Positions 1 to 20,010 of a stretch of 61,908 nucleotides of DNA are shown one piece after another (position 1 is the stretch's first letter; each line of letters starts with the position of its first letter). Source of the DNA: Candidatus Woesearchaeota archaeon (GTDB lineage: Archaea; Nanobdellota; Nanobdellia; Woesearchaeales; UBA10216); NCBI GenBank assembly GCA_043807015.1, contig JAZDGJ010000047.1, positions 1-61,908 on the forward strand. The letters are read 5' to 3'. A program made the translations under genes and the position numbers. The notes below the pieces were generated by a model, which made no database searches, was not told the origin of the DNA, and saw nothing but the letters and a program-made list of their open reading frames with translations.

Positions 1-167
1 CTAGCGATAATTTCCCCGGCAACATCGTGTACGGGCAGAACATTGAGAACCAGAGATACGGGTATGCAAACACATCAAGGTACGACTTCCAGCTCCTTGT
101 GCCTGAAAGAGGCGAGGCGAGCTGGACAGGCGCAACAGCGTATTACTTTTACGTAGAGCTGGCATGA
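1..167 (+). CDS. 3' fragment of a family-A secreted protein, truncated by the window edge (paralog of 1839..2573 and 19258..20010)
   Basis: The frame from nt 3 reads ...GNIVYGQNIENQRYGYANTSRYDFQLLVPERGEASWTGATAYYFYVELA*. This is collinear with the C-termini ...YGYNNQTYDFQMILPERGIDGWSSSTAYYFYMELS* and ...MDFQMIVPENMAEGTSNYFFFVELS*. It is too short to appear in the ORF track. Confidence 0.7.
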   Translation, partial: SDNFPGNIVYGQNIENQRYGYANTSRYDFQLLVPERGEASWTGATAYYFYVELA

Positions 168-170
168 AAC

Positions 171-1187
171 ATGGAACAAAAACAGAATATTGGAAATGAA
201 AACGCGGCAAACCAGATCATAATATGCGCCGCGCTTATAACTGCAATAGTGCTGGCTGGAATCTTTGTTGATTCTTATTATGCAACAGGCGCAACAAGCT
301 GGAATGTCACCACAAGGCTTAATGTCACAAACACAGAGCCAAACATGAATAACGTCATACTTGATGACCTTACATCAGACCCCTCAGACATAATAAATCT
401 CAATGCCGGTGCCTTTACAGAGGTACTCTGCAATGGCTCTGCCTATGACCCAAACGGGCAGAATGACATGATAAACGCAACAGCGACAATTTATGAAGAC
501 ACAATCGGGCGCTTTGGAGCAACTTCAAAATTCAACCGCTACGACAATACAACCTGCCTTGAATATTACAATGTCCCTGGGACAACCATGAACAGGTCAT
601 TTATCTGCAGGTTCCTGGTTGACTACTGGGCTTTCAACAGCACATGGGAATGCAACATTACCATAAGGGACCACGGCGGAACACAGCTCCCTTCATCAGG
701 CATAACTTCTGTCAATACCAGTGGAACAGACGAGGCAGTCATATACCAGCTAACAGCAATAAACGTCAGCACACAAATTCTTGACTTTGGAAACCTGAGC
801 GTGACTGACACTTCAGTAATGAAAGGGCTTAATATAACAAATGTCGGCAACGTCAGGACCAATTTCACAGTCTACGGTTACGGCGGAAATGACAGTGAAG
901 TTCTCGGCGCTAATCTGAGCTGCATGCTGTGCACTTTCAATAACATTACCGCGAGCCAGATGAGATTTTCAAATTCGTCAAGCGCAGCATGGGATGTGAT
1001 GGTGCCGCTGAACAGCACGCTGCAGATGCTTAACAACGTCACGCTTTTGAACAGGACAGACGAAAACACTCCACTTACGCTTGGCACCACTTCCAACACA
1101 ACATACTGGAGAATAAAAGTGCCTTTGAGCGTTGGCGGATTGTGCAACGGAACACTTGAGTTTTCCGCGACAACGCAGGCATCGTAA
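171..1187 (+). CDS. Sequon-rich secreted or anchored surface protein (family-B two-domain module)
   Basis: N-terminal hydrophobic anchor IIICAALITAIVLAGIFV. I count about 22 N-X-S/T sequons in 338 aa. The C-terminus TYWRIKVPLSVGGLCNGTLEF matches TYWRLRVPLGIFGLCNGTITF at the end of 10607..13393. The gene starts 4 nt after the preceding stop. Confidence 0.75.
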   Translation: MEQKQNIGNENAANQIIICAALITAIVLAGIFVDSYYATGATSWNVTTRLNVTNTEPNMNNVILDDLTSDPSDIINLNAGAFTEVLCNGSAYDPNGQNDMINATATIYEDTIGRFGATSKFNRYDNTTCLEYYNVPGTTMNRSFICRFLVDYWAFNSTWECNITIRDHGGTQLPSSGITSVNTSGTDEAVIYQLTAINVSTQILDFGNLSVTDTSVMKGLNITNVGNVRTNFTVYGYGGNDSEVLGANLSCMLCTFNNITASQMRFSNSSSAAWDVMVPLNSTLQMLNNVTLLNRTDENTPLTLGTTSNTTYWRIKVPLSVGGLCNGTLEFSATTQAS

Positions 1188-1236
1188 GCGCTTTTCTTTT
1201 GTTTTCCTTTTTTTGTTTTTTTGCGGAAAGCGCTTA
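1186..1236 (+). terminator. T-rich tract enclosed by an inverted repeat after the family-B gene
   Basis: AAGCGCTTTTC (1186-1196) and GAAAGCGCTT (1226-1235) flank an oligo-T-rich loop directly after the stop codon. Oligo-T is the usual archaeal termination signal. Confidence 0.45.
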
Positions 1237-1255
1237 CTTACCTAGCGAGTAACAG

Positions 1256-1371
1256 AAAATTGCGCTGATGCGCAATTTTGTGTGTCAGAAATGCTTATGC
1301 ATTTCTGAGCATGCTCAGAGCGCTTTGTCGCTCTGACATTCCAAAAACTCGTGCATTGTGCACGAGTTTTT
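1256..1371. repeat. Array of five consecutive perfect palindromes or hairpins
   Basis: The five units are: AAAATTGCGC-TGAT-GCGCAATTTT (1256-1279); TCAGAAATGC-TTAT-GCATTTCTGA (1285-1308); TCTGAGCATGCTCAGA (1304-1319); TCAGAGCG-CTTTGT-CGCTCTGA (1315-1336); AAAAACTCGTGCA-TTG-TGCACGAGTTTTT (1343-1371). Confidence 0.85.
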
Positions 1372-1420
1372 GATACTTACAGAGCGAGTAAGAGCAAGAG
1401 AAAAGCAAGAGAGAAAGCGA

Positions 1421-1852
1421 ATGGAAGAGTTAAAGAGAGAGGAAGAGAACTTAGCAATAGAGAACATAAACCTACCTCTGAACATTTTCTCTACAGAATT
1501 GGGCACGCTTGAGACGCTTGCAAAGTACCTTAAGGAAAATCTCGGCTTCAGCTTCAGCAGCATAGCATCGCTTCTTAACAGAGACCCAAGGACAATATGG
1601 GGCGCATATGACGGCGCAATGGAGAAGCACCCAGAGCCTTTCTTCGGGATTCCGGAAACTGCAATAGAGCTGCCTGTAGGAATGCTCCGGGACAGGCATT
1701 TTGGCATGCTTGAGAACCTTGTGTGGCACATGCATGAAAACCTCGGAATGAGATACAGCAGGATTGCCACGCTTATCAAGAGAAACGACAGGACTGTTTG
1801 GACTGCCTGGATGAGGGCTAGGAACAAGAGGACAGCATATGGCTTGCAATAA
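1421..1852 (+). CDS. Small putative DNA-binding protein with two tandem HTH-like repeats
   Basis: I place the start at the ATG at 1421, because the track start at 1358 lies inside hairpin E. Two repeats are visible: LAKYLKENLGFSFSSIASLLNRDPRTIWGAY and LVWHMHENLGMRYSRIATLIKRNDRTVWTAW. The 3' end overlaps the next gene by 14 nt. Confidence 0.6.
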   Translation: MEELKREEENLAIENINLPLNIFSTELGTLETLAKYLKENLGFSFSSIASLLNRDPRTIWGAYDGAMEKHPEPFFGIPETAIELPVGMLRDRHFGMLENLVWHMHENLGMRYSRIATLIKRNDRTVWTAWMRARNKRTAYGLQ

Positions 1853-2573
1853 AACATTCAGCTTTGCACTGATTGCAGTGTTCATAGTAGGCATAGCCTT
1901 GATGTCTGTATTTACTTCTGCAACCCCTGCAGGCGTCACAATAATACCCATAAGGAATGAAACATCAACACCCAGGGCTGCAAGCTTTGTCAACACAACA
2001 GGAGGCACCATAGCCACAGTAAACCTCAACGGCTCAACCCAGAACGTGAGGTGGAAAGCCTTTGTCGGAAATGTATCAGGCGCATTGACGCTTGATGATG
2101 CATATGGGTCAACAGTCTATGACTGGACAGCATCAGCGCCTTCTGGCGAGATATATGCTGCAAGAAGCTCTGCAACCCTGAACTGGTCTGTAATAGGCTG
2201 CGCAAACTCCACTCATTTAAGCATGGAAGACTTTGCAATGAACCACACGAACAAGGACGACAACATATCAAGGACTTTCTCAACAAAAGTGCATAACCAG
2301 TTTTATGTGGGGCTTGTGCAAATTGCCCAAAATGCATGCTACTCAATCCATACCTATGTCAATGACTCCTCCCAGAGCAGCAGGTTTGAGGAAATGGTGC
2401 TTTATGACGGCACCAACCTCACAAACGGCAACGTAGTCTTCAGCACAATACTTGAGCTGGACAAATACGGCTACAACAACCAAACCTATGATTTCCAGAT
2501 GATACTGCCTGAAAGGGGCATTGACGGCTGGTCAAGCTCAACAGCATATTACTTTTACATGGAGCTGTCATGA
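1839..2573 (+). CDS. Family-A secreted protein (~244 aa) with a conserved extreme C-terminus
   Basis: N-terminal anchor FSFALIAVFIVGIALMSVF. It shares the GEIYAA, DFQMI-PE and YYFYMELS* motifs with 19258..20010 and with the fragment at 1..167. It contains many N-X-S/T sequons. Confidence 0.75.
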   Translation: MACNKTFSFALIAVFIVGIALMSVFTSATPAGVTIIPIRNETSTPRAASFVNTTGGTIATVNLNGSTQNVRWKAFVGNVSGALTLDDAYGSTVYDWTASAPSGEIYAARSSATLNWSVIGCANSTHLSMEDFAMNHTNKDDNISRTFSTKVHNQFYVGLVQIAQNACYSIHTYVNDSSQSSRFEEMVLYDGTNLTNGNVVFSTILELDKYGYNNQTYDFQMILPERGIDGWSSSTAYYFYMELS

Positions 2574-3247
2574 AAATAATCACCAAGCTTGGAATTGCAC
2601 TGTTCATCATAGCAGGGCTTATCGCATTTTTTGCAGCCTACAAGCCAGCCATCACAGGATATGCCTCTGCAGGCACAACCCTCTATGTGCTTGGCGGGCT
2701 TTATGATTACAACTGCAACACTACAATGCAGAACGGCTGGAATCTTATTTCAATCCCCTGCGAATCCGAAAACACCACAGTGCCGTACGTACTGCAGACT
2801 ATTAATGGCAAATACGAATCAGTCCACGGCTATGACCGCAATGACTTAAATGACCCGTGGAAGAGCTACAAGCCAGGTCTTCCTGCGTGGGTTGAGCAGG
2901 ATTTGACAAACATAACCACGCTGAAAGGCTACTGGATAAACATCAACAGAACATCAAGCATCAACATCTCAGGCTATGTAAGGGTTCCAGGAGTGATACA
3001 GCTTGCGCCCGGATGGGAGCTTGTTGGATACCCTACAAATGTGACAAAAACCCCTGAATCTGCCTTTGCAGCCATCAACAGCAGCATATCGTCAGTGCAC
3101 GCATACAATGCTACAGATTATTCAGACTACTGGAAAGTTTACGTAAACACAGTCAACAGCTCATTCAATGACCTTAATTTGATTGTGCCCTACTGGGGAT
3201 ACTGGATTAATGTAACCTCCTCAGCCGTATGGGTAATAACCCAGTGA
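2570..3247 (+). CDS. Membrane-anchored secreted protein with an internally duplicated module
   Basis: ATGA overlap with the upstream gene. An N-terminal TM segment is followed by ITGYASAG. Two repeats are present: GWNLISIP...DPWKSY...GYWININ and GWELVGYP...DYWKVY...GYWINV. Confidence 0.7.
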   Translation: MKIITKLGIALFIIAGLIAFFAAYKPAITGYASAGTTLYVLGGLYDYNCNTTMQNGWNLISIPCESENTTVPYVLQTINGKYESVHGYDRNDLNDPWKSYKPGLPAWVEQDLTNITTLKGYWININRTSSINISGYVRVPGVIQLAPGWELVGYPTNVTKTPESAFAAINSSISSVHAYNATDYSDYWKVYVNTVNSSFNDLNLIVPYWGYWINVTSSAVWVITQ

Positions 3248-3252
3248 TAAAA

Positions 3253-3711
3253 ATGAACAAAACAAAAACAGCAATGATTGTGATTTTCCTTGCAATGATG
3301 AATCTTGCTACGGCAATGCCGCCGATTGCAAGCGAATATTTCGGCACTGTGACAATAAACAGCTACTTTGCAGAGCAGGGCACAAATGTTTCAATCTATG
3401 ATAATGACGGGAATTTGTGCGGCTCAGGGCTTGTAAAGCAGGAAGGGCAGTTCGGCTTCATATCATGCAACGGCGACGACATAAGCACAGCCCAAGACGA
3501 AGGCGCAAGCAAGGGCGAGGATGTCACCATTATGGTAAATGGGACCAATGCTGGCGCTGCCAGCTGGTTTGAAGGCTCAATTAACCAGCTGGAGATTGAT
3601 GTGAAACCGGCGCAAGTCAAAGCATCCCTGCCAGGAGGAATACTTCTGCTTCCCCTGATTCCGATAATGGCCATAATTGCAGCTTACTTTTACGTTAGCA
3701 GGAAAATATGA
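3253..3711 (+). CDS. Small surface protein with a C-terminal TM anchor
   Basis: Signal-like N-terminus MNKTKTAMIVIFLAMMNLATA. The domain PPIASEYFGTV..CG..FGFISCNGDD..EGASKGEDVTI parallels the N-terminus of 3708..6431 (PQPSAEFYGSV..CG..YGLLSCLGDD..EGAAEGDNITF). The C-terminus is LLLPLIPIMAIIAAYFYVSRKI. An alternative start lies at 3229. Confidence 0.7.
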   Translation: MNKTKTAMIVIFLAMMNLATAMPPIASEYFGTVTINSYFAEQGTNVSIYDNDGNLCGSGLVKQEGQFGFISCNGDDISTAQDEGASKGEDVTIMVNGTNAGAASWFEGSINQLEIDVKPAQVKASLPGGILLLPLIPIMAIIAAYFYVSRKI

Positions 3712-6431
3712 AAAAAGCAGAACAGCATGAAAAAATGAAGTTTTTCCTAGTTGCAGCAGCGATATTTTTGGCTCTTGTGCCCATTGCAGCTGCAATTCCG
3801 CAGCCATCGGCAGAATTCTACGGCTCAGTCCTTATGCACGGCGAGCCAGGAGTTGCAGCCTTAAACATTACAGCGTTTGACAGCTCACTCCAATGCGGAA
3901 ATTTCACTGTCAAAACTGCCGGCAGGTATGGGCTGCTTTCATGTCTGGGAGATGACTCAGACACAGTGCAGGTTGAAGGAGCTGCAGAAGGGGACAACAT
4001 AACCTTCAGGATAAACAGCACACCTGCCTTTGTTATCAATGGGCTGAACAACTGGAGCACCGGCAGTTTCCATTATACTGACATCCTTGGCTTGAAAAAC
4101 GATTCGCCTTACATGTATGGCTGCGAAAACGCAACCCTGCCAGAGGACAGCGCCGGCTCATCAGTCTACATAGACCTGTGGGTTTGCGCCTATGACGGGA
4201 ATGACAACATAAGCGATATGACTTTTGTTGTATCATCAGACTACAACTCCTCATTAATATCGTGCTATGTCTCCCTAAACCGCTATTTCACCTGCAATAA
4301 CCCGAGCCAGGACGCAAACGGGCTCTCTTATTCCATGGCAACAGTTACAAATTCGCTGCTGCTTAGCTGGTCTGCGAGAATTAATGTCAATGTAACTCCG
4401 GTGAATGACGCGCCGTATTTTGTCCAGAACCTCACAACGCAATACACGCAGGACGGCGCTAATTTCAGCTACAAAGTCAACTGCTCTGACATAGACGGCC
4501 CTGCAACATATTACTATGACAACACTTCGCTTTTTAACATCAGCTCAGCAGGGATGATTAACTTCTCAGCTGTGCAGGCAGACGTGGGAAACCATTCCAT
4601 AGCAATAACGTGCGGCGACGGCAGCCTTAACACAACACAGAATTTTACCCTTGCCGTTAATGATGTGAATAACCCGCCAACCCTTTACCCAATAGGGCTC
4701 CTGCAGGCTGCAGAAGACGTGCAGTTCCTCACCACTATAACTGCATATGACCCTGACAATGACACACTGATTTTCGCAGACAATACGTCGCTGTTTGAGA
4801 TAAACTCCACAACAGGAATAATAAACTTCACGCCGTCGCTTTCCCAAGTAGGCAACTACTCAATAAACATCTCGGTTACTGACGACGAGTTCACTGCTTA
4901 CGAAATCATAAACTTCACCATAAGAAGAGGGGCATTCTGCGGCGACACCTCATGTGGCGGCACAGAGGACTGCGCAAACTGCCCGGCTGACTGCGGCGCA
5001 TGCCTCCTGCCAGAGGAGCCTTCTGTTGAGCCAGGCGAGGGCGCGGGAGCCCTTCCAGGCACAAGCGCAGGATTTGGCGGTGTTGGTGCTGGAGCAGGAG
5101 CTGCAGCAAGGGCTGGAGGGGCAGGCGGCGGAGTCAGGTGCACAGCATCCTGGCAGTGCAGTGTATGGGGCGAATGCATTGACAGCTTCCAAACCAGGAC
5201 GTGCAAGGACACAAGGAAATGCGGCACAACAGCCAATAAGCCACAGGAAAAAAGGGAATGCGGCGTAGTGCAGCCTGAAACATGCTTTGATGGGATAAAA
5301 AATGGCAATGAAGAGGGAATAGACTGCGGCGGCAGCTGTGAAAAGAAGTGCAAGAGGGAATTATTTGCCGGGCTTCAGATTCCAGAGATAAAATGGCCTG
5401 AAATACATATAGGAAGGCGCCTTCCATGGCTTTTGATACTTGCTATCCTTATCATTTCGGGGCTTATGGTTGGAGGCGACCAGGTCTATGTAAAGCATAT
5501 TAGAAAGGCGCCGTTTGCAGTGCACAAGGAGAAAGCCAGGAAATACCGCAGGATAAGGCGCATGCTATACCAGACAATCTTCAATATCCTTGGGCTGACA
5601 CTGATTGCGTCAGTCTATTACTACCGCTTAAGCACCTGCCCGAGCTGCCTGATAGAAAACATCTGGATGCCGGGAATTATCGCAGTCATACTGCCAATAG
5701 CAATTGCCGCGATGATGAAAAAATTGGAATATTCTGAATACAAGAAGAATGTTGCAGAAAGAAGGCTTAAGATAACCCATGAGCTTCAGGTGAAGCAGCT
5801 GGCAAGGCTTGAGACAAAGATGCTGCTGCAGCTGGAAGAGCAGATTTTGGATGATATAAGGAAATACATGGCTGATAATCCAGAGACAGAGCTGGCTGGT
5901 TTTGGAGAGATGCTGAATGAGCTGATAAAGCTGCATGCTGACCTGCTGGTTTACAAGCCCTTGGGGCAGGAAGCTGTCAAGGCGATAGAAGAAGCAGCTG
6001 CAAATGAAAAGCTGGCAGGGCTTTCAAAGGAGCACTTCAAGATTGCCCAGCTGATTGACGACATGAAGATGCTCCTTGCAAATATCGCGCCGTCAGACGG
6101 GCTGCTTAAATCAGAAAGGCACTTTATGGCTGGAGTGGAAGACGTGGCGGCAGATGCATACATCATGAGCATACTGATGAGCGATGAAAATCTTACAAGC
6201 CTTTACAACAAGTTAGTTGATGCCTACAATGCAATAAAGAAAGTCCAGGCTGACATAAAGGAGGAGGAAAAGGAGCAGCAGAAGGAAGAGAACGCATTCC
6301 TGTCAGCACTGAAGGATTTCTTTGACAAAAAAGAGCTTGCCGAAGCCAACAAGGGCGACCGCAAGTGGGTTAAGATATTCAACCTTCTCGTAGACATAAA
6401 CGACCACTACGCAAAAAAGCTGGCGGAGTAG
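3708..6431 (+). CDS. Large modular envelope protein: cadherin-like repeats, Cys-rich modules, three TM segments and a cytoplasmic coiled coil
   Basis: ATGA overlap with the upstream gene and a signal peptide. VNDAPYF and VNDVNNPPT repeat boundaries suggest cadherin-like domains. Cys-rich modules include CGDTSCGGTEDCANCPADCGAC, a Gly/Ala linker, CTASWQCSVWGEC and DCGGSCEKKC. Hydrophobic segments are LPWLLILAILIISGLMVGG, IFNILGLTLIASVYYY and GIIAVILPIAIAAMM, followed by about 230 aa of charged heptad-like sequence. Confidence 0.8.
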   Translation: MKKAEQHEKMKFFLVAAAIFLALVPIAAAIPQPSAEFYGSVLMHGEPGVAALNITAFDSSLQCGNFTVKTAGRYGLLSCLGDDSDTVQVEGAAEGDNITFRINSTPAFVINGLNNWSTGSFHYTDILGLKNDSPYMYGCENATLPEDSAGSSVYIDLWVCAYDGNDNISDMTFVVSSDYNSSLISCYVSLNRYFTCNNPSQDANGLSYSMATVTNSLLLSWSARINVNVTPVNDAPYFVQNLTTQYTQDGANFSYKVNCSDIDGPATYYYDNTSLFNISSAGMINFSAVQADVGNHSIAITCGDGSLNTTQNFTLAVNDVNNPPTLYPIGLLQAAEDVQFLTTITAYDPDNDTLIFADNTSLFEINSTTGIINFTPSLSQVGNYSINISVTDDEFTAYEIINFTIRRGAFCGDTSCGGTEDCANCPADCGACLLPEEPSVEPGEGAGALPGTSAGFGGVGAGAGAAARAGGAGGGVRCTASWQCSVWGECIDSFQTRTCKDTRKCGTTANKPQEKRECGVVQPETCFDGIKNGNEEGIDCGGSCEKKCKRELFAGLQIPEIKWPEIHIGRRLPWLLILAILIISGLMVGGDQVYVKHIRKAPFAVHKEKARKYRRIRRMLYQTIFNILGLTLIASVYYYRLSTCPSCLIENIWMPGIIAVILPIAIAAMMKKLEYSEYKKNVAERRLKITHELQVKQLARLETKMLLQLEEQILDDIRKYMADNPETELAGFGEMLNELIKLHADLLVYKPLGQEAVKAIEEAAANEKLAGLSKEHFKIAQLIDDMKMLLANIAPSDGLLKSERHFMAGVEDVAADAYIMSILMSDENLTSLYNKLVDAYNAIKKVQADIKEEEKEQQKEENAFLSALKDFFDKKELAEANKGDRKWVKIFNLLVDINDHYAKKLAE

Positions 6432-7101: not shown

Positions 7102-7555
7102 ATACCTCACAAAGGAGGAAGCTTTCAACAAATGCAAAAGAGAAGGCAAGATTCTAGCTACTGAAAAGGCTGATTTGGAGAGAATAAAAGCAAATCTCAA
7201 AATCGCGGAAGAGGATTTTGAAGCGGCAAACTCGCTCAAGAAAAAGGAATTATGGAACAGCGCTTTCAAGCTATACTATGACGTATTACACGAACTCTCA
7301 GAATCATTCCTGCAGTTTGAAAGCATAAAAACTGAAAACCACCAGTGCCTTTTTGCCTACATCTGCGAAAAGCACCCGGAACTGGAACTCAGCTGGGACT
7401 TCTTTGAAAAAATAAGGACCAAAAGGAACGGAATACACTACTATGGCACACCAATAGACTACAGCGACTTTAAGGAGACAGAACTCCAATTCCGCCTCTA
7501 TACGGCCAAACTGAAGGAAGAGATCATTAAAAGACTAAACTCCTCAAAACCTTAA
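7094..7555 (+). CDS. HEPN-domain protein (partner of the MNT)
   Basis: About 150 aa and helical. RTKRNGIHY fits the R-x(4-6)-H HEPN motif. It is operonic with the MNT gene. Confidence 0.65.
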   Translation: MPEYLTKEEAFNKCKREGKILATEKADLERIKANLKIAEEDFEAANSLKKKELWNSAFKLYYDVLHELSESFLQFESIKTENHQCLFAYICEKHPELELSWDFFEKIRTKRNGIHYYGTPIDYSDFKETELQFRLYTAKLKEEIIKRLNSSKP

Positions 7556-7743: not shown

Positions 7744-7917
7744 ATGGGCAAAGGCAGCGAAAAGAGGGTGAACATAGGGCTCAACGAGGCTATTCATACC
7801 CAGGCAAAGCTCATAGCAGTCCTCACCAGGGTGAACCTTGAGGATTATCTCAAGAAGGCGATTGAGGATGCTGTAAAAAAGGACAAAAAGCTGCTTGAAG
7901 AGGTGGCGAAGAAATGA
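7744..7917 (+). CDS. 57-aa ribbon-helix-helix-like protein, translationally coupled to the 910-aa surface protein
   Basis: Not in the ORF track because it is under 60 aa. The translation is MGKGSEKRVNIGLNEAIHTQAKLIAVLTRVNLEDYLKKAIEDAVKKDKKLLEEVAKK*. The KRVNIGL beta-strand followed by helices is typical of RHH proteins. TATA-like GTTATAAATA lies upstream, and the stop overlaps the ATG at 7914 (ATGA). Confidence 0.55.
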   Translation: MGKGSEKRVNIGLNEAIHTQAKLIAVLTRVNLEDYLKKAIEDAVKKDKKLLEEVAKK

Positions 7918-13393: not shown

Positions 13394-14325
13394 AGAAATT
13401 ACTGCTTTCCGCATTGCTGATCCTTGTGCTTGCAACGAGTTCTCAGGCTTACATCTACGAGCTAAACCACCAGTGCGAAAACAGCTGCCTTCAGGAGACT
13501 GGAGTTATCTTTAACCTTACCCTTGACCCTGGGAAATGGAAAGACACAATGGAACTTCAGATGATACAGATTGTTGACGCAAAAAAAGGCACGCTGATCG
13601 CGCTATACAATAAAAGCACCTCGGTCTCGTCAAAAAAGAGCTTTTACATCAATGAAACGCTGCCAAAATACGACGGCAATCTGCTCATTAATGTCTCGCC
13701 CTGCTTTACAACAAGAGTCCCTCCAGTTGACAGGATGGTTGAGGATGTCTTTATCGCAACTGAGCTGACGTATTGCGAAAAAAACAACCACACAATCCCG
13801 CTGCTTGAGTGCTTATACTCGGGAAACTGTGATGAAAACAGTTTATGCATTAACAACACCTGCGCAGAGCTGGAATGCGGTGAATGCCAACACGTCTTTG
13901 ACCACAGATGCATCAGCTACCAGTGCTGTGGGAATGAAACCTGCAAAACGGCTCAGGAATGCCTGAACAACACCTGCATCGGCATTGGATGCGCAGAAAA
14001 AGAATTCGCAGAAAACCACACCTGCATAAAGCTTGCCTGCGCCGCAGGCGAATATGTGGCAAACCATTCCTGCATTAAAGTCCAGGCTGCTGCGGGCAGA
14101 ACTGCCAGCAGCACTGTGGACAAAGAAATTGCCCAAGCCAAGACTGCAGCTTTCTCGCAAAAATGGCTTGCCCGGATTGTGGAATTTCCGAAACGCATCA
14201 ATTCTGCCGTCGTATACAGGGTGCTTGAGGTGTTTGCTTTTGGGGTAATTGTGTTCCTGATTCTCAGGCTTTTGGAAGCAAAAACAAAAATCTTTATAAA
14301 ACTGACAAACAGAGGGCAAAAATGA
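13390..14325 (+). CDS. Cys-rich surface protein with a C-terminal TM anchor
   Basis: ATGA overlap with the upstream gene and the signal MKKLLLSALLILVLATSSQA. Repeats of the N-x-(T/S)-C type are present: INNTCAELEC, LNNTCIGIGC, ENHTCIKLAC and ANHSCIKV. The C-terminal TM segment is VFAFGVIVFLILRLL. Confidence 0.7.
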   Translation: MKKLLLSALLILVLATSSQAYIYELNHQCENSCLQETGVIFNLTLDPGKWKDTMELQMIQIVDAKKGTLIALYNKSTSVSSKKSFYINETLPKYDGNLLINVSPCFTTRVPPVDRMVEDVFIATELTYCEKNNHTIPLLECLYSGNCDENSLCINNTCAELECGECQHVFDHRCISYQCCGNETCKTAQECLNNTCIGIGCAEKEFAENHTCIKLACAAGEYVANHSCIKVQAAAGRTASSTVDKEIAQAKTAAFSQKWLARIVEFPKRINSAVVYRVLEVFAFGVIVFLILRLLEAKTKIFIKLTNRGQK

Positions 14326-15500
14326 GCTTCATGCAAAAAATATATTTGATGGTGGTCTGCATCTTCATCTCAATAGCCACAGCACAGAGTGGGCTTGCGG
14401 CGTCAATAGGTGCATCGCCTGCAAGCATTAGTTTTGGAAACGTCCTGAGGAACGGCTATGCAGAGTCCCAGTTGTTTGTCAGCACAGGGGCTTCTGAAAT
14501 AGTCTACGGGCACTTTGAGGTAAATGGCGAAGTTGAAGGCTGGATAAGCTTCAGACCCAACACCACAAATTTTAATGTCACGATGAACCAGCCAAGGATG
14601 GTCACTGTGATTGTAACCCCGCCATCTGATGTCCCTATTGGCTCTTACTCGGGCTCGCTCACAATATCAGGCGACACCCTGGGAGATATCTCAGGCAGGG
14701 CTGGCAGCGTAATAAGGACATCAATCATCCTCCCTATAACAGTCTCTCTGACAGGGAGGCAGCAGCGCGGCTGCACTGCCGGCGCCTTTGATTTTGAGGA
14801 TGTGGAAGAGGGCTCTCCGCTTGTAATGTGGTCAACCGTCAGGAACACGGGCAATATCAGAATATCTCCGCTGATAAAGCTGTCCATCTGGGACAACCTC
14901 AAGGAAAAAGTTGTCATGACAACAGAGCTTCGCGCCAAGGAAGTCCTGCCAACAGTGACTGGGCGCTCATTTGTGACAATTGAGCACAGCCTTCCGATAG
15001 GGCAGTATTGGGTTGAGGCGTCAATGCCTGAATGCAACTTTGAAACCCTGCTCACATTCAGCGTTATCCAGAAAGGAGGAATATCGGATAAGGGCGAGCT
15101 TACAGAGCTTAAGACACCAAGCACAGCACTTGTTGGAGAAACTGTGCCAATAACGGCGCTTTTTTACAACAAAGGCGCAACTCTAGTCACCGCCCAGTTC
15201 AAGGGCGCTATTAAAAAAGGCGGCAGGACAATAGGGCTTGTAAATTCAGACGCTGTTGAGGTCTCTGCAGGGCAGGTTGAAAGGCTTCTCGCTTACTTCA
15301 CTCCAAATGAACAGGGCGAATACACTGTGACAGGAAGGGCGCTATACAACAACAAATACACCTATGAGAAAAGCGCAAAATTCAAGGTGATTGGCGAAAA
15401 AGCAGCTTACACTCCGCTGCCCCTCCTGATTTATCTCATCTTTGTTGCAGCAGCAGTATTCTTCATAAGGAAGATAAGGCAACGAAAGCGTCAGAAATGA
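14322..15500 (+). CDS. Ig-like (PapD/ASH-like) surface protein with a C-terminal TM anchor and a basic tail
   Basis: ATGA overlap and a signal peptide. ASPASISFGNVLRNGYAES resembles the first strand of PapD/ASH-type domains. The C-terminus is PLPLLIYLIFVAAAVFFIRKIRQRKRQK. Confidence 0.75.
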   Translation: MSFMQKIYLMVVCIFISIATAQSGLAASIGASPASISFGNVLRNGYAESQLFVSTGASEIVYGHFEVNGEVEGWISFRPNTTNFNVTMNQPRMVTVIVTPPSDVPIGSYSGSLTISGDTLGDISGRAGSVIRTSIILPITVSLTGRQQRGCTAGAFDFEDVEEGSPLVMWSTVRNTGNIRISPLIKLSIWDNLKEKVVMTTELRAKEVLPTVTGRSFVTIEHSLPIGQYWVEASMPECNFETLLTFSVIQKGGISDKGELTELKTPSTALVGETVPITALFYNKGATLVTAQFKGAIKKGGRTIGLVNSDAVEVSAGQVERLLAYFTPNEQGEYTVTGRALYNNKYTYEKSAKFKVIGEKAAYTPLPLLIYLIFVAAAVFFIRKIRQRKRQK

Positions 15501-16297: not shown

Positions 16298-16386
16298 CGC
16301 TATGCTGGCTGGCTTTACAATATAAAAACATTTGTTATACCGAAAGAATAAAGACAAGATGGTATCCTTGGTGGTAATTCCTCTCA

Positions 16387-16480
16387 AGCCGGCTCGGTGC
16401 TGTTGGCACTCATTTTTTCTCCCCACAACTTAGTTATGGGGAGGAAAAAATGACCTTGGCGTGGCCAAGGCGAGCCGGCT
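16387..16480. other. 94-nt cloverleaf-like four-way junction (candidate ncRNA or DNA cruciform)
   Basis: The closing stem is AGCCGGCTCG (16387-96) with CGAGCCGGCT (16471-80). The three hairpins are GTGC-TGTTG-GCAC (16397-409), TTTTTTCTCCCCA/TGGGGAGGAAAAAA (16413-50) and CCTTGGC-GTG-GCCAAGG (16454-70). Linkers are 0 to 3 nt. Confidence 0.6.
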
Positions 16481-16547: not shown

Positions 16548-18281
16548 ATGCGTGGGTTGAAACTTGCTGCGGTATTGCTAGCTATACTGATGACGTTTGT
16601 TGTTTTTGCGCCATTATCGCTGGCTGCAGAGCCCAACACAATAGTAAGTAACTCCGCAGACTGGAAAGACGTCTACTCAGTTATGCTCTTTGCAAGCCTA
16701 ACCCAAAGGCAGGCAACATTTCTCGTAAGCGACAGGCACGCATTATTGCTGCCGGAATACCTTACTCCTGACACCCATATCTGGGTTATAAGCTCTCCAA
16801 ATAATGAATTCACAATCGGCTATGACAGCTATCTCAGGACAAGGGGATTCACAACAGAGGGGTTTGAATATGATAATGTAAACCTTGAGCTGGCAAAGCA
16901 GACGGATATGAAAAATTTCATAATTGTGGACGATTCCTACGGCTATAATTCAGTGGCTGTGGCACCTTATGCCGTTGTTTCAAAGTCCTATGTCCTCTTT
17001 GCGGATTCCACAAACATAGACCAGATAGACTCATTCCTCACAGACAGAAATCCAGACAAAGTGCTAATCTACGGGCACGTGGACAGGACTGTAAAAGATG
17101 CCCTGGCAAAATACAGCCCTGAAATAATCAACAAGGACGGCGACAGGTTTGCAAACAATGTTGAGATACTGAAGAAATACCAGGATATTGCCCATGCAAA
17201 GCAGGTCATCCTTACAAACGGCGAGTTCATAGAGCAGGAAATAATGTCTGGAAAGGAGCCTGTTATTTTCATTGGGCGCACAAATGTGCCCGATGTAACA
17301 AGGGAATACATCCAGGGAAGCGACATCAGCGTCGGGGTGCTTATTGGAAACGAGCTTGTCAGCACAGCGACATTTGTCAGAAGGGAGCTCGGCATAAGCG
17401 TCTTCGTCAAGTTTGCAAGGAGCGCAAGGAACCCTGCTGGCTCAATATCTCAGGTAGAGGCCCTTGACATGTTTTATCTTCCAACATATTCCGTTGAAAT
17501 TGTGATTGACAGCGTAAGCTACAACAAAGCTACAAGGCAGCTGGAAATTGTTTTCAGAAACACAAAAGATGTTGCAGCATACTTCAAGGGCACATACACC
17601 ATAACAAATGCCGATGGGACAAGGCAGACAGTGGGAGATGCGGAGCCAATTTTCATAGAGCCAAACTCCTACAAGACAGTTACGTATGTGGTGGACGGAT
17701 TTACTGAAAACTCTGTGATTGACGCTTACGTCATATACGGCGAGTCAAAGAATTCCCTTGAAAACGTAATCCAGGAGCAGTTCTGCATGGCTTGCAGCAA
17801 GAAATTCTCAATGATTGACGTGATTGACAACTGCCAGCTCAACCTCACATCCGTTTCATACAACCTGCCCAGAAAGCTGTTCTATGCCGAGATAGAAAAC
17901 ATCGGCCCAGTTGGCTGCTATCTTGATATAGAGCTGGTCGACGTAATGGTTGCCGCAGAGCGCGTCACATACCACCTGACTGATGTAGCATATGTTGACG
18001 CAGGGCAGTCAAAAGAGCTGAGGATAAAAGGCGCATTGGAGCAAGACGACATACAGGACAACCAGTTTGTGAACGCCAAGGTCTACTACGGGCAGAGGCA
18101 GAACGGGCTTGTGAAAATCCTTGAGGGAAGGTTCCCGCTTCTGATTATAACCCAGGCATTCAGCGCGATGACAATAATTTCCTATGCGCTTCTGGCAGTG
18201 ATAATAATCATACTGGCGCTGCTCCTATGGCTGTTTTTTGCCAAGAGGAGAAGAAAGCGCAAATCCTACGATAACCAATAA
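16548..18281 (+). CDS. Secreted protein with repeated alpha/beta modules (cell-wall-binding-repeat-2-like), Ig-like C-terminal half and a TM anchor
   Basis: Signal ending in PLSLAAEP. Recurring modules include SADWKDVYSVMLFASL.., NSVAVAPYAVVSKSYVLFADS..VLIYG and QVILTNGEF..PVIFIG. The C-terminus is LAVIIIILALLLWLFFAKRRRKRK. The domain assignment is by eye only. Confidence 0.7.
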   Translation: MRGLKLAAVLLAILMTFVVFAPLSLAAEPNTIVSNSADWKDVYSVMLFASLTQRQATFLVSDRHALLLPEYLTPDTHIWVISSPNNEFTIGYDSYLRTRGFTTEGFEYDNVNLELAKQTDMKNFIIVDDSYGYNSVAVAPYAVVSKSYVLFADSTNIDQIDSFLTDRNPDKVLIYGHVDRTVKDALAKYSPEIINKDGDRFANNVEILKKYQDIAHAKQVILTNGEFIEQEIMSGKEPVIFIGRTNVPDVTREYIQGSDISVGVLIGNELVSTATFVRRELGISVFVKFARSARNPAGSISQVEALDMFYLPTYSVEIVIDSVSYNKATRQLEIVFRNTKDVAAYFKGTYTITNADGTRQTVGDAEPIFIEPNSYKTVTYVVDGFTENSVIDAYVIYGESKNSLENVIQEQFCMACSKKFSMIDVIDNCQLNLTSVSYNLPRKLFYAEIENIGPVGCYLDIELVDVMVAAERVTYHLTDVAYVDAGQSKELRIKGALEQDDIQDNQFVNAKVYYGQRQNGLVKILEGRFPLLIITQAFSAMTIISYALLAVIIIILALLLWLFFAKRRRKRKSYDNQ

Positions 18282-18543
18282 TTTTTCTCCAGATATAGCT
18301 AGGTGCTTACTTAACTACACTAATTAATTAACCGCTTAACCAGATTCTGAAATGGCGTTTTTTCCGCCCAGTAAACCCATTTTCCCTCTATTAAACTAAT
18401 TTAGTAATTGCTTAACTATAGAAGTATTTGATTCATTGTGGTTAATCGAGTATAGAAATGCTTATATACTAGTTATGCTAGGAACTGATATAGGATTTTG
18501 TATACTCACATATCAAAGAAAGTTAAAAGGCAACTGAAGAAAA

Positions 18544-19146
18544 ATGGAGCTTGCACCGATGTTCATGGAGCAGAGATGGAACATATTGCAGCATCTTTCA
18601 CGGCAGAGCCTATCTCCATTGCAGCTTGCCGGCGTGACAAACACAACAATTGCAAACATCAGCCAGCAGCTCAGGCTTCTGGAAGCTGCAGACCTTGTCA
18701 AAAAAACAAAAATCCCAAACCGCGACAAAGGACAGCCGAGAACCCTGTTCTCGTTGACAGATGATTATGCTTACATAGTTTCATTGATGGACAACTTTGC
18801 GCAGAAAAAGCTCGTGAAGCTCAATGCAGGGCAGAAGAGCCTGCTGAAAATACTCTCCATTGAAGACTCTGACCAGCGCAGCAAGGCTGAGGAGCTTTAC
18901 TTCAAGCTGCGCGAATTCAACGGCAAGATTGAGGCAACAGCCCTTGACCTCTCAGCAGGCAGCGTAATGTTTGCAGTCTGCTCTGACAAGGAAATGAAAA
19001 AAAGGCTTGATTCAATGGACGGGCTTAAAACAGTTACAGAGCAAAGGCTCAGGGAGCTATTCAAATCCGGCAGCATACTGCCGCTTGACGATCCTCGCCA
19101 ATTATTCAAAATTGTAACCGGTGAAGGAAAAGCAATTAGGACGTAA
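18544..19146 (+). CDS. ArsR-like winged-helix transcription regulator with a C-terminal extension
   Basis: RWNILQHLSRQSLSPLQLAGVTNTTIANISQQLRLLEAADLVKK...RTLFSLT has the ArsR/SmtB-type HTH-plus-wing pattern. Confidence 0.65.
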   Translation: MELAPMFMEQRWNILQHLSRQSLSPLQLAGVTNTTIANISQQLRLLEAADLVKKTKIPNRDKGQPRTLFSLTDDYAYIVSLMDNFAQKKLVKLNAGQKSLLKILSIEDSDQRSKAEELYFKLREFNGKIEATALDLSAGSVMFAVCSDKEMKKRLDSMDGLKTVTEQRLRELFKSGSILPLDDPRQLFKIVTGEGKAIRT

Positions 19147-19257
19147 GGGAAACAGCCCAGGAACACACCCGAACCACCTCGTAAGCTGTGCCCTTTCATC
19201 CTAATTTAGCGCTCAAAAGAAAGCGTAAGAGAAAACGACCTAGAGGTGAAAGGTAAA

Positions 19258-20010
19258 ATGAAAGCGAAAATGTTTGTTATAGCAGTTTTTATTATGGTGC
19301 TTATTGGGGCAATTATTGCACTTGCTGCGCCGAATGCGCCAACACAGGCGGATATAGTAAGCTCTGGCCGGCGCAATTACACCGCAGGCGTAGGCGGAGT
19401 ATCCATAGGTGCACAGGCAGGAAATGTCACCCAGCTGAACATACAAGACAACAGGACAACAACCCACTGGCAGGGCTACTACGGAACTGTATCAGGCGAA
19501 ATAACACTTGACAATGGAAAGAATGACACGCTTTACAACTGGGTTTTTGCAAACCCAAAGGGCGAGATTTATGCTGCAAACGCCTCTGTGGTTACCTGGG
19601 CTAACATCACCTGCGTCAATTTGACTGGAAACGGCAGCCTGGCGGATTCTCCATCAAGGAGCAAGCTGAACAACACCATACTTGAGAGCGTTTTCAACAT
19701 ATCAGATGCTGACTCGGACGGCATAAATGAAACATTTACTGCTGAATTTACCGGCTCACTTGTGATTGGCTCAACGACATTAACCACTACAGACTACTGT
19801 CCGATGGCTTACATGTTTGTCAGCAACATGTCGCAGTCAAGCACATTCAAGGAAGTGCTTCTCTCAGACAATCTCAGCTCAATATGGACAGGCATACTGG
19901 AGAGTGACCAGCCGGGCTTTGACGGCACAAATATGGACTTCCAGATGATAGTGCCTGAAAACATGGCCGAAGGAACATCGAACTATTTCTTCTTCGTCGA
20001 GCTGTCATAA
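19258..20010 (+). CDS. Family-A secreted protein (third paralog)
   Basis: Start at ATG 19258 (MKAKMFVIAVFIMVLIGAIIALA). It shares GNVTQLNIQ, GEIYAA, DFQMIVPE and YFFFVELS* with 1839..2573. Confidence 0.75.
   Translation: MKAKMFVIAVFIMVLIGAIIALAAPNAPTQADIVSSGRRNYTAGVGGVSIGAQAGNVTQLNIQDNRTTTHWQGYYGTVSGEITLDNGKNDTLYNWVFANPKGEIYAANASVVTWANITCVNLTGNGSLADSPSRSKLNNTILESVFNISDADSDGINETFTAEFTGSLVIGSTTLTTTDYCPMAYMFVSNMSQSSTFKEVLLSDNLSSIWTGILESDQPGFDGTNMDFQMIVPENMAEGTSNYFFFVELS

What the first reader, a model, noticed from the sequence alone, without database searches (positions are those of the whole stretch)
1..20010. 20-kb island of modular, operon-packed surface glycoproteins bracketed by family-A paralogs
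Almost every gene in this stretch encodes a protein with an N-terminal signal or anchor. Most have Ig/cadherin/FN3/PapD-like repeats, and several have a C-terminal TM segment plus a basic tail. The genes form two long operons (1839-6431 and 7744-15500) whose genes are joined by ATGA start/stop overlaps or other short overlaps.

The island is built from recurring modules. Family A occurs three times (1-167, 1839-2573 and 19258-20010). A family-B two-domain module occurs as a stand-alone gene (171-1187) and again as the C-terminus of the 928-aa protein. The EYFG/CG/SCxGDD domain occurs in both 3253-3711 and 3708-6431.

I see no pilus ATPase, secretin, sortase or archaeosortase in the window. I cannot map the ensemble to a described archaeal appendage system. 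It could be a host-attachment or cell-cell contact apparatus of an episymbiotic archaeon.
Basis: partly seen in the sequence, partly recalled or inferred. Interest (0 to 1): 0.75.

Follow-up and report, generated by a model that had tools for sequence, protein, structure and literature searches.

The report
Conserved surface-protein cluster of Woesearchaeota
This stretch is most of a gene cluster conserved across the tiny Woesearchaeota and Pacearchaeota archaea; it is built around a secreted protein domain with no known relative and probably holds giant adhesin-like proteins on the cell surface, though its function is untested.

Summary
Families A and B and the "EYFG" domain are true paralogs (E 1e-15 to 1e-39), and the genes are packed with ATGA overlaps. 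About 12 of 18 genes encode secreted or membrane-anchored proteins.

The island is not an idiosyncratic pile-up. Family A has at least 1,320 clusters at 50% identity, all hits assignable to Woesearchaeota, Pacearchaeota or Nanoarchaeota MAGs. The window's gene order recurs in distant relatives. The recurring core is [large or giant secreted Ig/CARDB-repeat protein ending in an A domain] - A (A2-type) - A (A1-type) - B. A-B adjacency occurs in 52 of 79 loci, with a median gap of 2.5 nt.

A matches nothing in Pfam, NCBIfam, PDB sequences, or the PDB and BFVD folds. B is a tandem beta-sandwich with only generic resemblance to two-domain adhesins such as FimH, CfaE and SdrG. No type IV pilus, chaperone-usher, TasA-type or sortase machinery was detected.

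Best reading (confidence about 0.4): A is a co-assembly or retention module. Free A paralogs plus B form a surface scaffold. Anchorless giant adhesin-like proteins plug into it through their C-terminal A domain. Membrane-anchored partners and dedicated HTH regulators are co-encoded. Function is inferred, not shown.

The "bracketing" by A paralogs is an artefact of the window edge. The NTase/HEPN pair is an insertion.

The parts
1..167 (+). A0: C-terminal 54 residues of an A1-type family-A gene, cut by the window edge. The full-length ortholog is 262 aa in L082.
   Evidence: 51% identical to the A1 C-terminus. 79% identical to L082 703-1491.
171..1187 (+). B1: family B, 338 aa. Sec-type N-terminus followed by two beta-sandwich domains. 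It starts 3 nt after the A0 stop.
   Evidence: AF2 pLDDT 88. Foldseek gives only generic tandem-Ig matches. 36 homologs. A-B adjacency in 52 of 79 loci.
1188..1357 (.). Intergenic region with a long oligo-T tract just after B1, likely the archaeal terminator that ends the upstream A-A-B operon.
   Evidence: Sequence read directly. The terminator function is inferred.
1358..1852 (+). Tandem HTH protein (HTH_23 / sigma-70 region-4-like). It overlaps A1 by 14 nt and is a putative dedicated regulator.
   Evidence: Pfam HTH_23 at 25.6 bits against a cut-off of 24.6. Homologs lie directly upstream of an A1-type gene in 28 loci.
1839..2573 (+). A1: family A, 244 aa. It has a signal peptide, a conserved 40-residue N-terminal extension and a beta-rich core of about 180 residues, and it ends YYFYMELS.
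2570..3247 (+). P225: secreted 225-aa protein with repeated GWNL.../GYWIN motifs and no known family.
   Evidence: 17 syntenic homologs. Only a weak match to a designed Kelch propeller, E 0.02.
3253..3711 (+). P152: signal peptide, 'EYFG' domain and C-terminal TM anchor.
   Evidence: Syntenic in 14 loci.
3708..6431 (+). P907: signal peptide, EYFG domain, cadherin/Ig-like repeats, a Cys-rich region, a membrane-spanning region at about residues 565-670 (two segments by the hydropathy scan, a third read by eye) and a helical tail of about 230 aa that is probably cytoplasmic.
   Evidence: The conserved part is residues 295-904.
7744..7917 (+). 57-aa ribbon-helix-helix-like protein, the first gene of operon 2. 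Its stop overlaps the P910 start (ATGA).
   Evidence: Weak ParG hit. 54-66% identical homologs lie directly upstream of P910 homologs in 11 distinct loci.
7914..10646 (+). P910: signal peptide, Ig-like and FN3-like repeats, a helical region, a TM at 766-784 and a 126-aa tail.
   Evidence: Syntenic homologs at 30-81% identity.
10607..13393 (+). P928: N-terminal hydrophobic segment, Ig-like domains and a C-terminal family-B module (residues 643-926).
13390..14325 (+). P311: signal peptide, Cys-rich ectodomain and C-terminal TM. No homolog was found in the fetched loci.
14322..15500 (+). P392: signal peptide, beta-sandwich (CARDB-like) ectodomain, C-terminal TM and basic tail.
   Evidence: Homologs lie next to A-A-B and P910-like genes in L041, L047 and L069.
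16548..18281 (+). P577: signal peptide, 520-aa ectodomain of unknown family, C-terminal TM and RRRKRK tail. It is part of the second conserved unit, with the ArsR-HTH and an A paralog.
   Evidence: 40-50% identical homologs lie next to ArsR-HTH + A in L003, L054 and L070.
18544..19146 (+). ArsR-type winged-helix regulator upstream of A2.
   Evidence: Pfam HTH_20 and HTH_5. The homolog sits directly upstream of an A paralog in L003, L054 and L070.
19258..20010 (+). A2: the A2-type family-A paralog, 250 aa, followed by an oligo-T tract.

Best explanation
The region is the larger part of a chromosomal cell-surface gene cluster specific to the Woesearchaeota/Pacearchaeota lineage. Its defining element is family A, a Sec-secreted, sequon-rich beta domain of about 215 residues with no known relative. 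Family A occurs in two forms. One is 1-7 free-standing paralogs per locus, of A1 and A2 types. The other is the extreme C-terminal domain of large to giant Ig/CARDB-repeat proteins that are secreted but have no membrane anchor.

I propose that A is a co-assembly or retention module. Free A paralogs, together with the translationally coupled tandem-beta-sandwich protein B, build a surface-attached scaffold, either a short fibre or a lattice patch. The giant adhesin-like proteins are held on the cell by inserting their C-terminal A core into that scaffold. The C-terminally TM-anchored proteins encoded alongside (P152 and P907, which share one ectodomain, plus P910, P392 and P577) tie it to the membrane. 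Small HTH and RHH regulators co-transcribed with each unit control expression.

A sub-hypothesis is that the conserved N-terminal extension of free A acts as a donor strand between subunits.

SHOWN: paralogy, secretion signals, domain architectures, the C-terminal-end rule, synteny, the restricted taxonomic range, and the absence of known machinery or homology.
INFERRED: physical co-assembly, anchoring, donor-strand exchange, and any role in adhesion or host contact.
For: 1. Conserved order across distant genomes. The A2-A1-B unit occurs in 49 of 79 loci and A-B adjacency in 52 of 79, with a median stop-to-start gap of 2.5 nt. This implies co-expression and probably a stoichiometric partnership. 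The window's full order recurs in L001, L005, L010, L014 and L082: A2 A1 B HTH A1 P225 P152 P907 ... RHH P910 P928.

2. A shared module. An A core (profile positions about 65-244) ends 17 large proteins in the loci. Those proteins are 398 to more than 2,945 aa, and the gene callers record 7,246 and 8,641 aa for two of them. They lie directly upstream of A-A-B. The complete examples have cleavable signal peptides and no TM anchor.

3. The C-terminal-end rule. Of 231 family members that carry the YYFYxE[LI] motif, 227 stop 1-2 residues after it.

4. A is the most conserved surface protein of the cluster. Against L082, A1 is 85% identical, compared with 58-81% for B, P225, P152, P907, P910 and P928. 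Against L001, A1 is 57% identical, compared with 32-41%. This fits a module that contacts a conserved self partner better than a host-facing ligand binder.

5. The mature N-terminal 36 residues of free A are about as conserved as the core (0.59 vs 0.66). AF2 nevertheless cannot place them (pLDDT below 50), and they are absent from the divergent A cores of the giant proteins. This is the pattern expected of an inter-subunit strand.

6. The B module is likewise reused at the C-terminus of P928 and of 404- and 664-aa proteins in L047 and L069.

7. B is a confident tandem beta-sandwich. Its best fold matches are two-domain adhesins or fimbrial tip subunits and integrin legs.
Against: - There is no direct evidence of any protein-protein contact. 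No multimer prediction could be run.
- The A model is only moderate (pLDDT 74.5), so 'no fold match' may partly reflect model error.
- About 10 of the top 150 family representatives carry a complete A, including the 'extension', in-line at the end of larger proteins. A free N-terminal donor strand is therefore not obligatory.
- A few proteins carry A at their N-terminus (L047, L071).
- The many invariant acidic and polar residues (D141, E185, D218, Q220, E242) could mark a ligand, metal or catalytic site rather than an interface.
- Fold matches for B are weak (TM 0.2-0.39) and generic.
- Sec signal-peptide cleavage is predicted by eye only. If the N-terminal helices are uncleaved anchors, the topology argument changes.
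Confidence: 0.4

Rival explanations
1. A is a ligand- or host-binding (lectin-like) head domain. It is displayed at the distal C-terminal tip of giant fibres and also on its own. The paralogs provide a repertoire of specificities for attaching to host cells, and B and the other proteins are further adhesins.
For: - The domain sits at the extreme end of long repeat proteins and is present as multiple paralogs.
- It has invariant acidic and polar residues and conserved Trp/Tyr, typical of sugar-binding sites.
- The nearest, though non-significant, fold matches are trimeric adenovirus fibre knobs that bind sialic acid.
- The lineage is a DPANN lineage presumed to be episymbiotic (PMC8204110).
Against: - A is the slowest-evolving surface protein of the cluster, whereas host-recognition domains usually diversify fastest.
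- Free A has a cleavable-looking signal peptide and no anchor, so a soluble lectin would be lost from the cell.
- The fixed A2-A1-B order and the tight coupling point to a complex rather than a repertoire.
- The knob matches have TM about 0.2 and probability at most 0.11.
Confidence: 0.2
2. A and B (possibly with P577) are the main cell-envelope lattice, that is the S-layer, of these archaea. Other surface proteins carry an A or B module in order to integrate into that lattice.
For: - The family is spread across the Woesearchaeota/Pacearchaeota lineage but not beyond it: 313 relatives in GTDB species representatives and 1,320 clusters at 50% identity.
- Sequon-rich secreted proteins are typical of archaeal S-layer glycoproteins.
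- No S-layer gene has been characterised for this lineage in the papers searched.
- Shared anchoring modules are known for bacterial S-layers (SLH domains, from my own knowledge).
Against: - S-layer proteins are usually one or two large, fast-evolving proteins. Here there are 1-7 small, highly conserved paralogs in two fixed subfamilies under dedicated regulators.
- Universality within the lineage was not established, because the scan depended on sequence patterns.
- There are no expression data.
Confidence: 0.15
3. This is a generic pile-up of unrelated surface adhesins. The genes are adjacent only because surface-protein genes tend to cluster and duplicate, and there is no joint apparatus.
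For: - Several members (P311, the coiled-coil gene and the NTase/HEPN pair) have no syntenic counterpart.
- The large proteins are built from common Ig-like repeats.
- Copy numbers of A and B vary between loci.
Against: - The A2-A1-B order, A-B coupling, HTH-A1-P225-P152-P907 and RHH-P910-P928 are all kept across genomes whose orthologs are only 30-57% identical.
- Module sharing (A core, B module, EYFG domain) links the genes to one another.
Confidence: 0.1
4. A is a secreted enzyme domain, for example a beta-sandwich glycanase, lyase or peptidase that acts on host or matrix polymers. It is delivered either alone or on giant carrier proteins.
For: - High conservation, with invariant Asp, Glu and Gln and a near-invariant His.
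- Large extracellular enzymes (murein transglycosylase-like) are known in this lineage (PMC8204110).
- The giant partners carry LamG-like / 3-keto-disaccharide-hydrolase-like domains.
Against: - There is no match to any enzyme family or fold.
- Two fixed paralog subfamilies coupled to a non-enzymatic-looking partner B is unusual for an enzyme.
- No SLT domain was found in the A-terminated giants examined.
Confidence: 0.07

Closest known systems
Chaperone-usher (type 1/P/CFA-I) pili of Gram-negative bacteria
   Same: - The operon logic is similar. Several small secreted beta-sandwich subunit paralogs sit next to a larger adhesin whose C-terminal domain is a subunit-like module lacking the N-terminal extension, as in FimH and CfaE.
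- B's model gives its clearest matches to FimH (1kiu_B) and CfaE (3f83, 2hb0).
- Free A has a conserved N-terminal extension that cannot be modelled in the monomer.
   Different: - There is no PapD-like chaperone or usher, and no outer membrane is known.
- A has no Ig-like pilin fold match.
- The fold matches for B are generic (TM at most 0.39).
- This is an archaeal lineage.
- The adhesin partners are far larger, at thousands of residues.
TasA-superfamily donor-strand filaments of archaea: AbpA/AbpX bundling pili, the Saci_0406 thread and CanA/CanX cannulae (PMC12518558)
   Same: - Subunits of 200-250 aa with a Sec/SPI signal and several paralogs side by side.
- No dedicated ATPase or chaperone is encoded nearby.
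- An N-terminal strand is used for polymerisation. For A this is only hypothesised.
   Different: - There is no sequence or profile match to Peptidase_M73/TasA or to the solved subunits.
- Foldseek against the PDB returned no match at E <= 0.001, and none of the 50 rows listed is a TasA, AbpA, thread or cannula subunit. PMC12518558 cites 8AUR, 7UEG and 7PNB as their PDB entries.
- Those families are reported mainly in Thermoproteota.
- None is described as the C-terminal domain of giant proteins.
Shared cell-wall anchoring modules, such as SLH domains of Gram-positive S-layer and surface proteins, and the C-terminal sorting domains of T9SS cargo (from my own knowledge)
   Same: One conserved module is reused by many surface proteins of very different size. 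It sits at a fixed terminus and mediates retention on the cell's own envelope.
   Different: - There is no homology.
- A also exists as abundant domain-only proteins in fixed paralog pairs.
- The binding partner is unknown.
- No processing enzyme (sortase, PorU or archaeosortase) is evident.
Lineage-specific 'module 98' protein families of Woesearchaeota + Pacearchaeota (Castelle et al. 2021, PMC8204110)
   Same: The taxonomic range is the same. The families are mostly of unknown function, and many are predicted to be extracellular or membrane-bound. Giant extracellular proteins were noted in the same genomes.
   Different: - That study lists families by co-occurrence only. It describes no A/B cassette, no gene order and no domain logic.
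- I could not check whether A and B are among its 51 families, because I did not open the supplementary table.
- The giant proteins it highlights carry a murein transglycosylase domain, which is not seen in the A-terminated giants examined here.

Membership tests
Type IV filament superfamily (archaeal type IV pili / archaellum) | Class III signal peptide: a short basic leader cleaved before a hydrophobic helix of about 20 aa that is retained in the mature subunit. | tested here: not met
   All 51 family-A N-termini look like Sec/SPI signals, with AxA- or VxG-type sites after the hydrophobic core. The mature protein starts xPxGPxIT. B and P225 are the same. This was judged by eye. No SignalP or FlaFind was available.
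Type IV filament superfamily (archaeal type IV pili / archaellum) | PilB/FlaI-type assembly ATPase, PilC/FlaJ platform and a prepilin peptidase encoded with the pilins. | tested here: not met
   No T2SSE, T2SSF or Peptidase_A24 hit in any scanned ORF of the window or among the genes listed in syntenic loci. They could still be encoded elsewhere in the genome.
TasA superfamily donor-strand filaments (TasA, AbpA/AbpX, 0406 thread, CanX) | Sequence or profile similarity to Peptidase_M73 (PF12389) or to the solved subunits. | tested here: not met
   None of the 51 members hits PF12389 at E <= 1. The family profile against all PDB sequences gives no hit at E <= 10.
TasA superfamily donor-strand filaments (TasA, AbpA/AbpX, 0406 thread, CanX) | Jelly-roll fold superimposable on TasA, AbpA or CanX. 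| tested here: not met
   Foldseek of the A1 model against the PDB gave no match at E <= 0.001. The best matches are adenovirus knobs at TM about 0.2. Caveat: the model's pLDDT is 74.5.
TasA superfamily donor-strand filaments (TasA, AbpA/AbpX, 0406 thread, CanX) | An N-terminal donor strand that completes the neighbouring subunit's fold. | not testable with these tools
   The evidence is only suggestive. The N-terminal extension is conserved (0.59 vs 0.66 for the core) yet has pLDDT below 50.
Chaperone-usher pili | A PapD-like periplasmic chaperone and an outer-membrane usher in the operon. | tested here: not met
   There are no PapD_N/PapD_C or Usher Pfam hits. B's fold matches the adhesin subunits, not the chaperone.
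Archaeosortase / PGF-CTERM (or sortase LPXTG) anchored surface proteins | A C-terminal tripartite signal with a PGF (or LPXTG) motif before the TM and basic tail, plus an archaeosortase or sortase gene. | tested here: not met
   The C-terminal TM regions of P152, P311, P392 and P577 have no PGF, PEF or LPXTG motif (sequences). No such enzyme was found in the scanned ORFs.
Archaeal S-layer | One or two very abundant proteins that form a 2-D lattice covering the cell. | not testable with these tools
   This needs expression, proteomic or cryo-ET data. The papers found give none for these families.
Two-domain MSCRAMM / fimbrial tip adhesins (for family B) | Tandem Ig-like (DEv-IgG or lectin + pilin) domains with a ligand-binding trench or pocket. 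| tested here: inconclusive
   B is a confident tandem beta-sandwich (pLDDT 88). It matches FimH, CfaE, SdrG and FnBPA at E 2e-4 to 1e-3 but with TM of only 0.17-0.39, and it matches integrin legs and transglutaminase barrels equally well.

The most novel reading that the evidence does not exclude
Family A defines a new class of archaeal surface structure, confined to the Woesearchaeota/Pacearchaeota lineage. It would be a Sec-dependent, machinery-free scaffold (filament or patch) made of A1- and A2-type subunits plus B. Anchorless giant adhesins dock onto it through a C-terminal A core. In this reading it is the long-sought attachment apparatus of these uncultivated episymbionts, built from a fold and an assembly logic unrelated to type IV, TasA-type or chaperone-usher systems.
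Probability: 0.3. Interest if true: 0.85.

Novelty: new variant of a known kind. Interest (0 to 1): 0.6.

Why it matters
Woesearchaeota and Pacearchaeota are among the most abundant uncultivated archaea. They are presumed to live attached to other cells, yet nothing is known about how their envelope is built or how they hold on to a partner.

This cluster gives a concrete and testable candidate: a small set of conserved, co-ordered genes with clear predictions about who binds whom. It also contributes a domain family of at least 1,300 sequence clusters that is absent from Pfam, NCBIfam and the PDB.

If A proves to be a self-assembling anchor for giant adhesins, it would add a new solution to the problem of retaining huge secreted proteins on a cell that has no wall, sortase or outer membrane. 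It would also supply markers for locating host-contact sites by cryo-ET, or for pulling down hosts.

Tried and rejected
- Pfam and NCBIfam on every island protein. Only marginal Ig-like hits came back, and nothing for A, B, P225, P311 or P577.
- PDB sequence searches with A1, B1, P907, P910 and P577, and profile searches with the A and P225 alignments. Nothing significant was found.
- Pfam on all 51 A members and all 17 P225 members at E <= 1. The results were noise.
- Foldseek of the A model against the PDB and viral BFVD. There was no match, so a viral capsid or fibre origin is rejected.
- hhalign among island families. A, B, P225, P577, P907 and P910 are not detectably related to each other.
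- tRNA and Rfam scans. Nothing was found.
- Integrated element. I considered and rejected this because the window carries FtsZ, RtcB, Orc1/Cdc6 and SerRS and the cluster is syntenic in many chromosomes.
- 'Tip adhesin without donor strand'. I treated this as the strict rule at first and then weakened it, after finding larger proteins that carry a complete in-line A.
- A-A fusion construct. I prepared one to test donor-strand exchange with AF2 but did not submit it.
- Literature searches for a described system. None was found.
- Murein transglycosylase domains in the A-terminated giants. None were present.

Full report
**1. What is in the sequence**

Six-frame ORFs and translations give the following map. 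All genes are on the + strand unless noted.

| Gene | Coordinates | Note |
|---|---|---|
| A0 | 1-167 | fragment |
| B1 | 171-1187 | |
| tandem HTH | 1358-1852 | |
| A1 | 1839-2573 | |
| P225 | 2570-3247 | |
| P152 | 3253-3711 | |
| P907 | 3708-6431 | |
| NTase | 6553-7101 | |
| HEPN-like | 7094-7555 | |
| RHH | 7744-7917 | |
| P910 | 7914-10646 | |
| P928 | 10607-13393 | |
| P311 | 13390-14325 | |
| P392 | 14322-15500 | |
| coiled-coil protein | 15491-16426 | minus strand |
| P577 | 16548-18281 | |
| ArsR-type HTH | 18544-19146 | |
| A2 | 19258-20010 | |

Junctions read directly from the DNA are as follows:
- ATGA overlaps occur at A1/P225, P152/P907, RHH/P910, P928/P311 and P311/P392.
- The HTH/A1 overlap is 14 nt.
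- The A0-B1 gap is 3 nt.
- Long oligo-T tracts follow B1 and A2.

This gives four transcription units:
- the end of an A-A-B operon;
- HTH-A1-P225-P152-P907;
- RHH-P910-P928-P311-P392;
- P577 / ArsR / A2.

The rest of the window is ordinary chromosome. It carries FtsZ, a Toprim protein, RtcB, Orc1/Cdc6, NAPRTase, SerRS and RIO kinase.

**2. Checking the observation**

The paralogy claims are correct and far beyond chance:
- A1 vs A2: E 3e-29.
- A0 vs A1: E 1e-15.
- B1 vs P928 residues 662-925: E 1e-39.
- P152 vs the P907 N-terminus: E 3e-18.

Hydropathy confirms N-terminal hydrophobic segments in 11 proteins. It also confirms a C-terminal TM plus basic tail in P152, P311, P392 and P577. Six genes are clearly cytoplasmic.

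N-x-S/T sequons behave differently in different proteins:

| Protein | Sequons observed | Shuffle mean |
|---|---|---|
| A1 | 12 | 4.0 |
| A2 | 13 | 4.1 |
| B1 | 22 | 8.4 |
| P907 | 27 | 6.8 |
| P928 | 56 | 17 |
| P910 | 11 | 7.4 |
| P392 | 2 | 2.7 |
| P577 | 1 | 4.0 |

Sequons are enriched in the first five and not in the last three.

Ig, cadherin and FN3 assignments rest on marginal Pfam or NCBIfam hits.

**3. Where it comes from and how far it extends**

A1 has 240 word-indexed homologs. All are 'hypothetical', and every named one comes from a Woesearchaeota or Nanoarchaeota MAG.

A profile search of 1.84 billion representatives finds 1,320 clusters at E <= 1e-3 and 910 at E <= 1e-10.

A scan of GTDB species representatives finds 313 relatives. 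They are labelled Woesearchaeota, Pacearchaeota or Nanoarchaeota, apart from a few evidently mislabelled MAGs.

Castelle et al. 2021 (PMC8204110) had already noted a block of 51 mostly unannotated families shared by exactly these two lineages. Many of those families are extracellular. That study gives no gene-order or domain description.

**4. Synteny**

I used tblastn of the island proteins against 81 fetched loci and an HMM domain scan of all their ORFs. Both show a recurring core:

[large or giant secreted repeat protein ending in an A core] - A (A2-type) - A (A1-type) - B.

- A-B adjacency occurs in 52 of 79 loci, with a median gap of 2.5 nt.
- A-A-B occurs in 49 loci.
- A large protein with a C-terminal A occurs in 17 loci. 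Many other loci are truncated upstream.

Closer relatives (L001, L005, L010, L014, L009, L030, L082) repeat the window's whole order as far as P928.

In L082, a relative at about 80% identity, the window's A0 is a complete 262-aa gene preceded by an A2-type gene. The cluster therefore runs off the left end of the window. In that relative the NTase/HEPN pair is replaced by an unrelated minus-strand gene, so the pair is an insertion.

A second unit, P577 with an ArsR-HTH and an A paralog, recurs in L003, L054 and L070.

P392, P910-like and B-module proteins also travel together next to A-A-B in L041, L047 and L069.

**5. Anatomy of family A**

The N-termini are Sec-type, and the mature protein begins xPxGPxIT..NET.

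The AF2 model (51-sequence alignment, pLDDT 74.5) gives:
- a confident beta-rich core with two short helices over residues 64-244;
- no placement for residues 27-62 (pLDDT below 50), although that segment is nearly as conserved as the core (0.59 vs 0.66).

The model matches nothing in the PDB or BFVD at E <= 0.001. The family profile matches no PDB sequence and no Pfam family.

The domain obeys a strict end rule. Of 231 members that carry the YYFYxE[LI] motif, 227 terminate 1-2 residues after it.

The divergent A cores at the ends of giant proteins align to profile positions from about 65 to 244 and lack the extension. The complete examples of these carriers have signal peptides, Big_7/Big_13/CARDB/DUF2341/LamG-like domains, and no TM anchor.

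A second class of larger proteins carries a complete A in-line. Six of the ten examined have a Nup98-type S59 autopeptidase domain upstream, with an intact HFS motif.

**6. Family B and the others**

B has 36 homologs. Its model is confident (pLDDT 88): an N-terminal helix followed by two beta-sandwiches, each with conserved Cys pairs.

Foldseek returns only generic tandem-Ig matches at E 7e-5 to 1e-3 and TM 0.17-0.39. These include integrin alpha-V legs, FimH, CfaE, SdrG/FnBPA, RbmA and transglutaminase barrels.

P225 is a secreted protein with repeated GWNL/GYWIN motifs and no known relative.

P907 combines an EYFG domain (shared with P152), cadherin-like repeats, a Cys-rich region, a membrane-spanning region and a long helical tail. 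The TM and tail portion is the conserved part.

The families are not detectably related to each other.

**7. Interpretation**

The facts that need explaining are:
- a highly conserved, always-C-terminal module shared by small domain-only proteins and by anchorless giant repeat proteins;
- a fixed A2-A1-B order with tight translational coupling;
- reuse of the B module and the EYFG domain in larger neighbours;
- co-encoded TM-anchored proteins and private regulators;
- restriction to one DPANN lineage;
- no known assembly machinery.

The most economical reading is that A is a co-assembly or retention module. Free A subunits and B form a surface scaffold, and the giant adhesin-like proteins plug into it through their A cores.

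A's conservation rank supports this reading. In both close and distant comparisons it is the slowest-evolving surface protein. That favours a self-partner interface over a host-facing binding site.

The conserved but unmodellable N-terminal extension is absent from the divergent giant-protein cores. This is the pattern seen in donor-strand systems. The in-line complete A domains mean this sub-hypothesis is not obligatory.

I put the overall explanation at about 0.4. The rivals are a lectin-like head (0.2), an S-layer (0.15), an unrelated pile-up (0.1) and an enzyme (0.07).

**8. Comparison with known systems**

In logic, the cluster most resembles chaperone-usher pili (subunit paralogs plus an adhesin with a subunit-like C-terminal domain). 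It also resembles the machinery-free TasA-superfamily filaments of archaea described in PMC12518558.

It fails every testable membership criterion for those families, for type IV filaments, and for sortase or archaeosortase substrates (see Membership tests). It is therefore not a member of any of them.

**9. Verdict**

The feature is real and is conserved across a major uncultivated lineage. Its parts have no described relatives. Its function is unproven.

I rate it a new variant of a known kind (a surface adhesin or appendage cluster). There is a substantial chance, about 0.3, that it is a categorically new assembly system. Interest is 0.6.

Noticed in passing
window 6553-7555: A nucleotidyltransferase (Polbeta/NTP_transf_2) and a HEPN-like partner overlap by 8 nt, as in a toxin-antitoxin pair. 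They sit between the two surface-protein operons. A relative at about 80% identity (L082) has an unrelated 359-aa minus-strand gene at this position, so the pair is a recent insertion and not part of the cluster.
   Followed up: partly
homologs P0239, P0270, P0272, P0280, P0297, P0304 (not in the window): Larger relatives carry a Nup98-type S59 autopeptidase domain with an intact HFS cleavage motif (for example 'NVQHFSAYSA'). An Ig-like domain and a complete A2-type domain follow it. This suggests autoproteolytic maturation of some A-bearing surface proteins in archaea.
   Followed up: partly
window 1358-1852; also L001, L004, L005 and others: A tandem-HTH protein with weak sigma-70 region-4 / HTH_23 similarity always lies directly upstream of an A1-type gene and overlaps it (28 loci). 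Castelle et al. 2021 remarked on sigma-70-like factors in Woesearchaeota. I did not check whether this is the same family.
   Followed up: no
window 7744-7917: A 57-aa ribbon-helix-helix-like gene (weak ParG hit) has its stop overlapping the P910 start. Homologs at 54-66% identity occupy the same position in 11 distinct loci. It is probably a dedicated regulator of the second operon.
   Followed up: partly
window 20471-22853: A GT4/starch-synthase-like glycosyltransferase and a GH57 family enzyme overlap immediately downstream of the island. This looks like alpha-glucan (glycogen-type) metabolism rather than protein glycosylation.
   Followed up: no
window 29388-31837: A membrane-anchored protein with a SurA-like N-terminal chaperone domain (29388-30014, minus strand) sits next to two proteins of unknown family that have N-terminal hydrophobic segments (420 aa and 126 aa). 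The 126-aa one begins MVGKKAYMKTAEAVIAIAITF, which is faintly pilin-like. Nothing was verified.
   Followed up: no
L001 1-1926; L004 1-1530: The gene callers record proteins of 8,641 and 7,246 residues that end in an A core directly upstream of the A-A-B unit. These are among the largest archaeal proteins, and only their last 500-640 residues were examined here.
   Followed up: partly
L047 622-4143; L071 2804-5329: A few proteins break the C-terminal rule and carry the A domain at their N-terminus, followed by 600-900 further residues. They were not examined further.
   Followed up: no
window 15491-16426 (minus strand): A 311-aa lysine- and glutamate-rich coiled-coil protein is encoded convergently and overlaps the end of P392 by 10 nt. 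It has no signal peptide and no homolog in any fetched locus.
   Followed up: no
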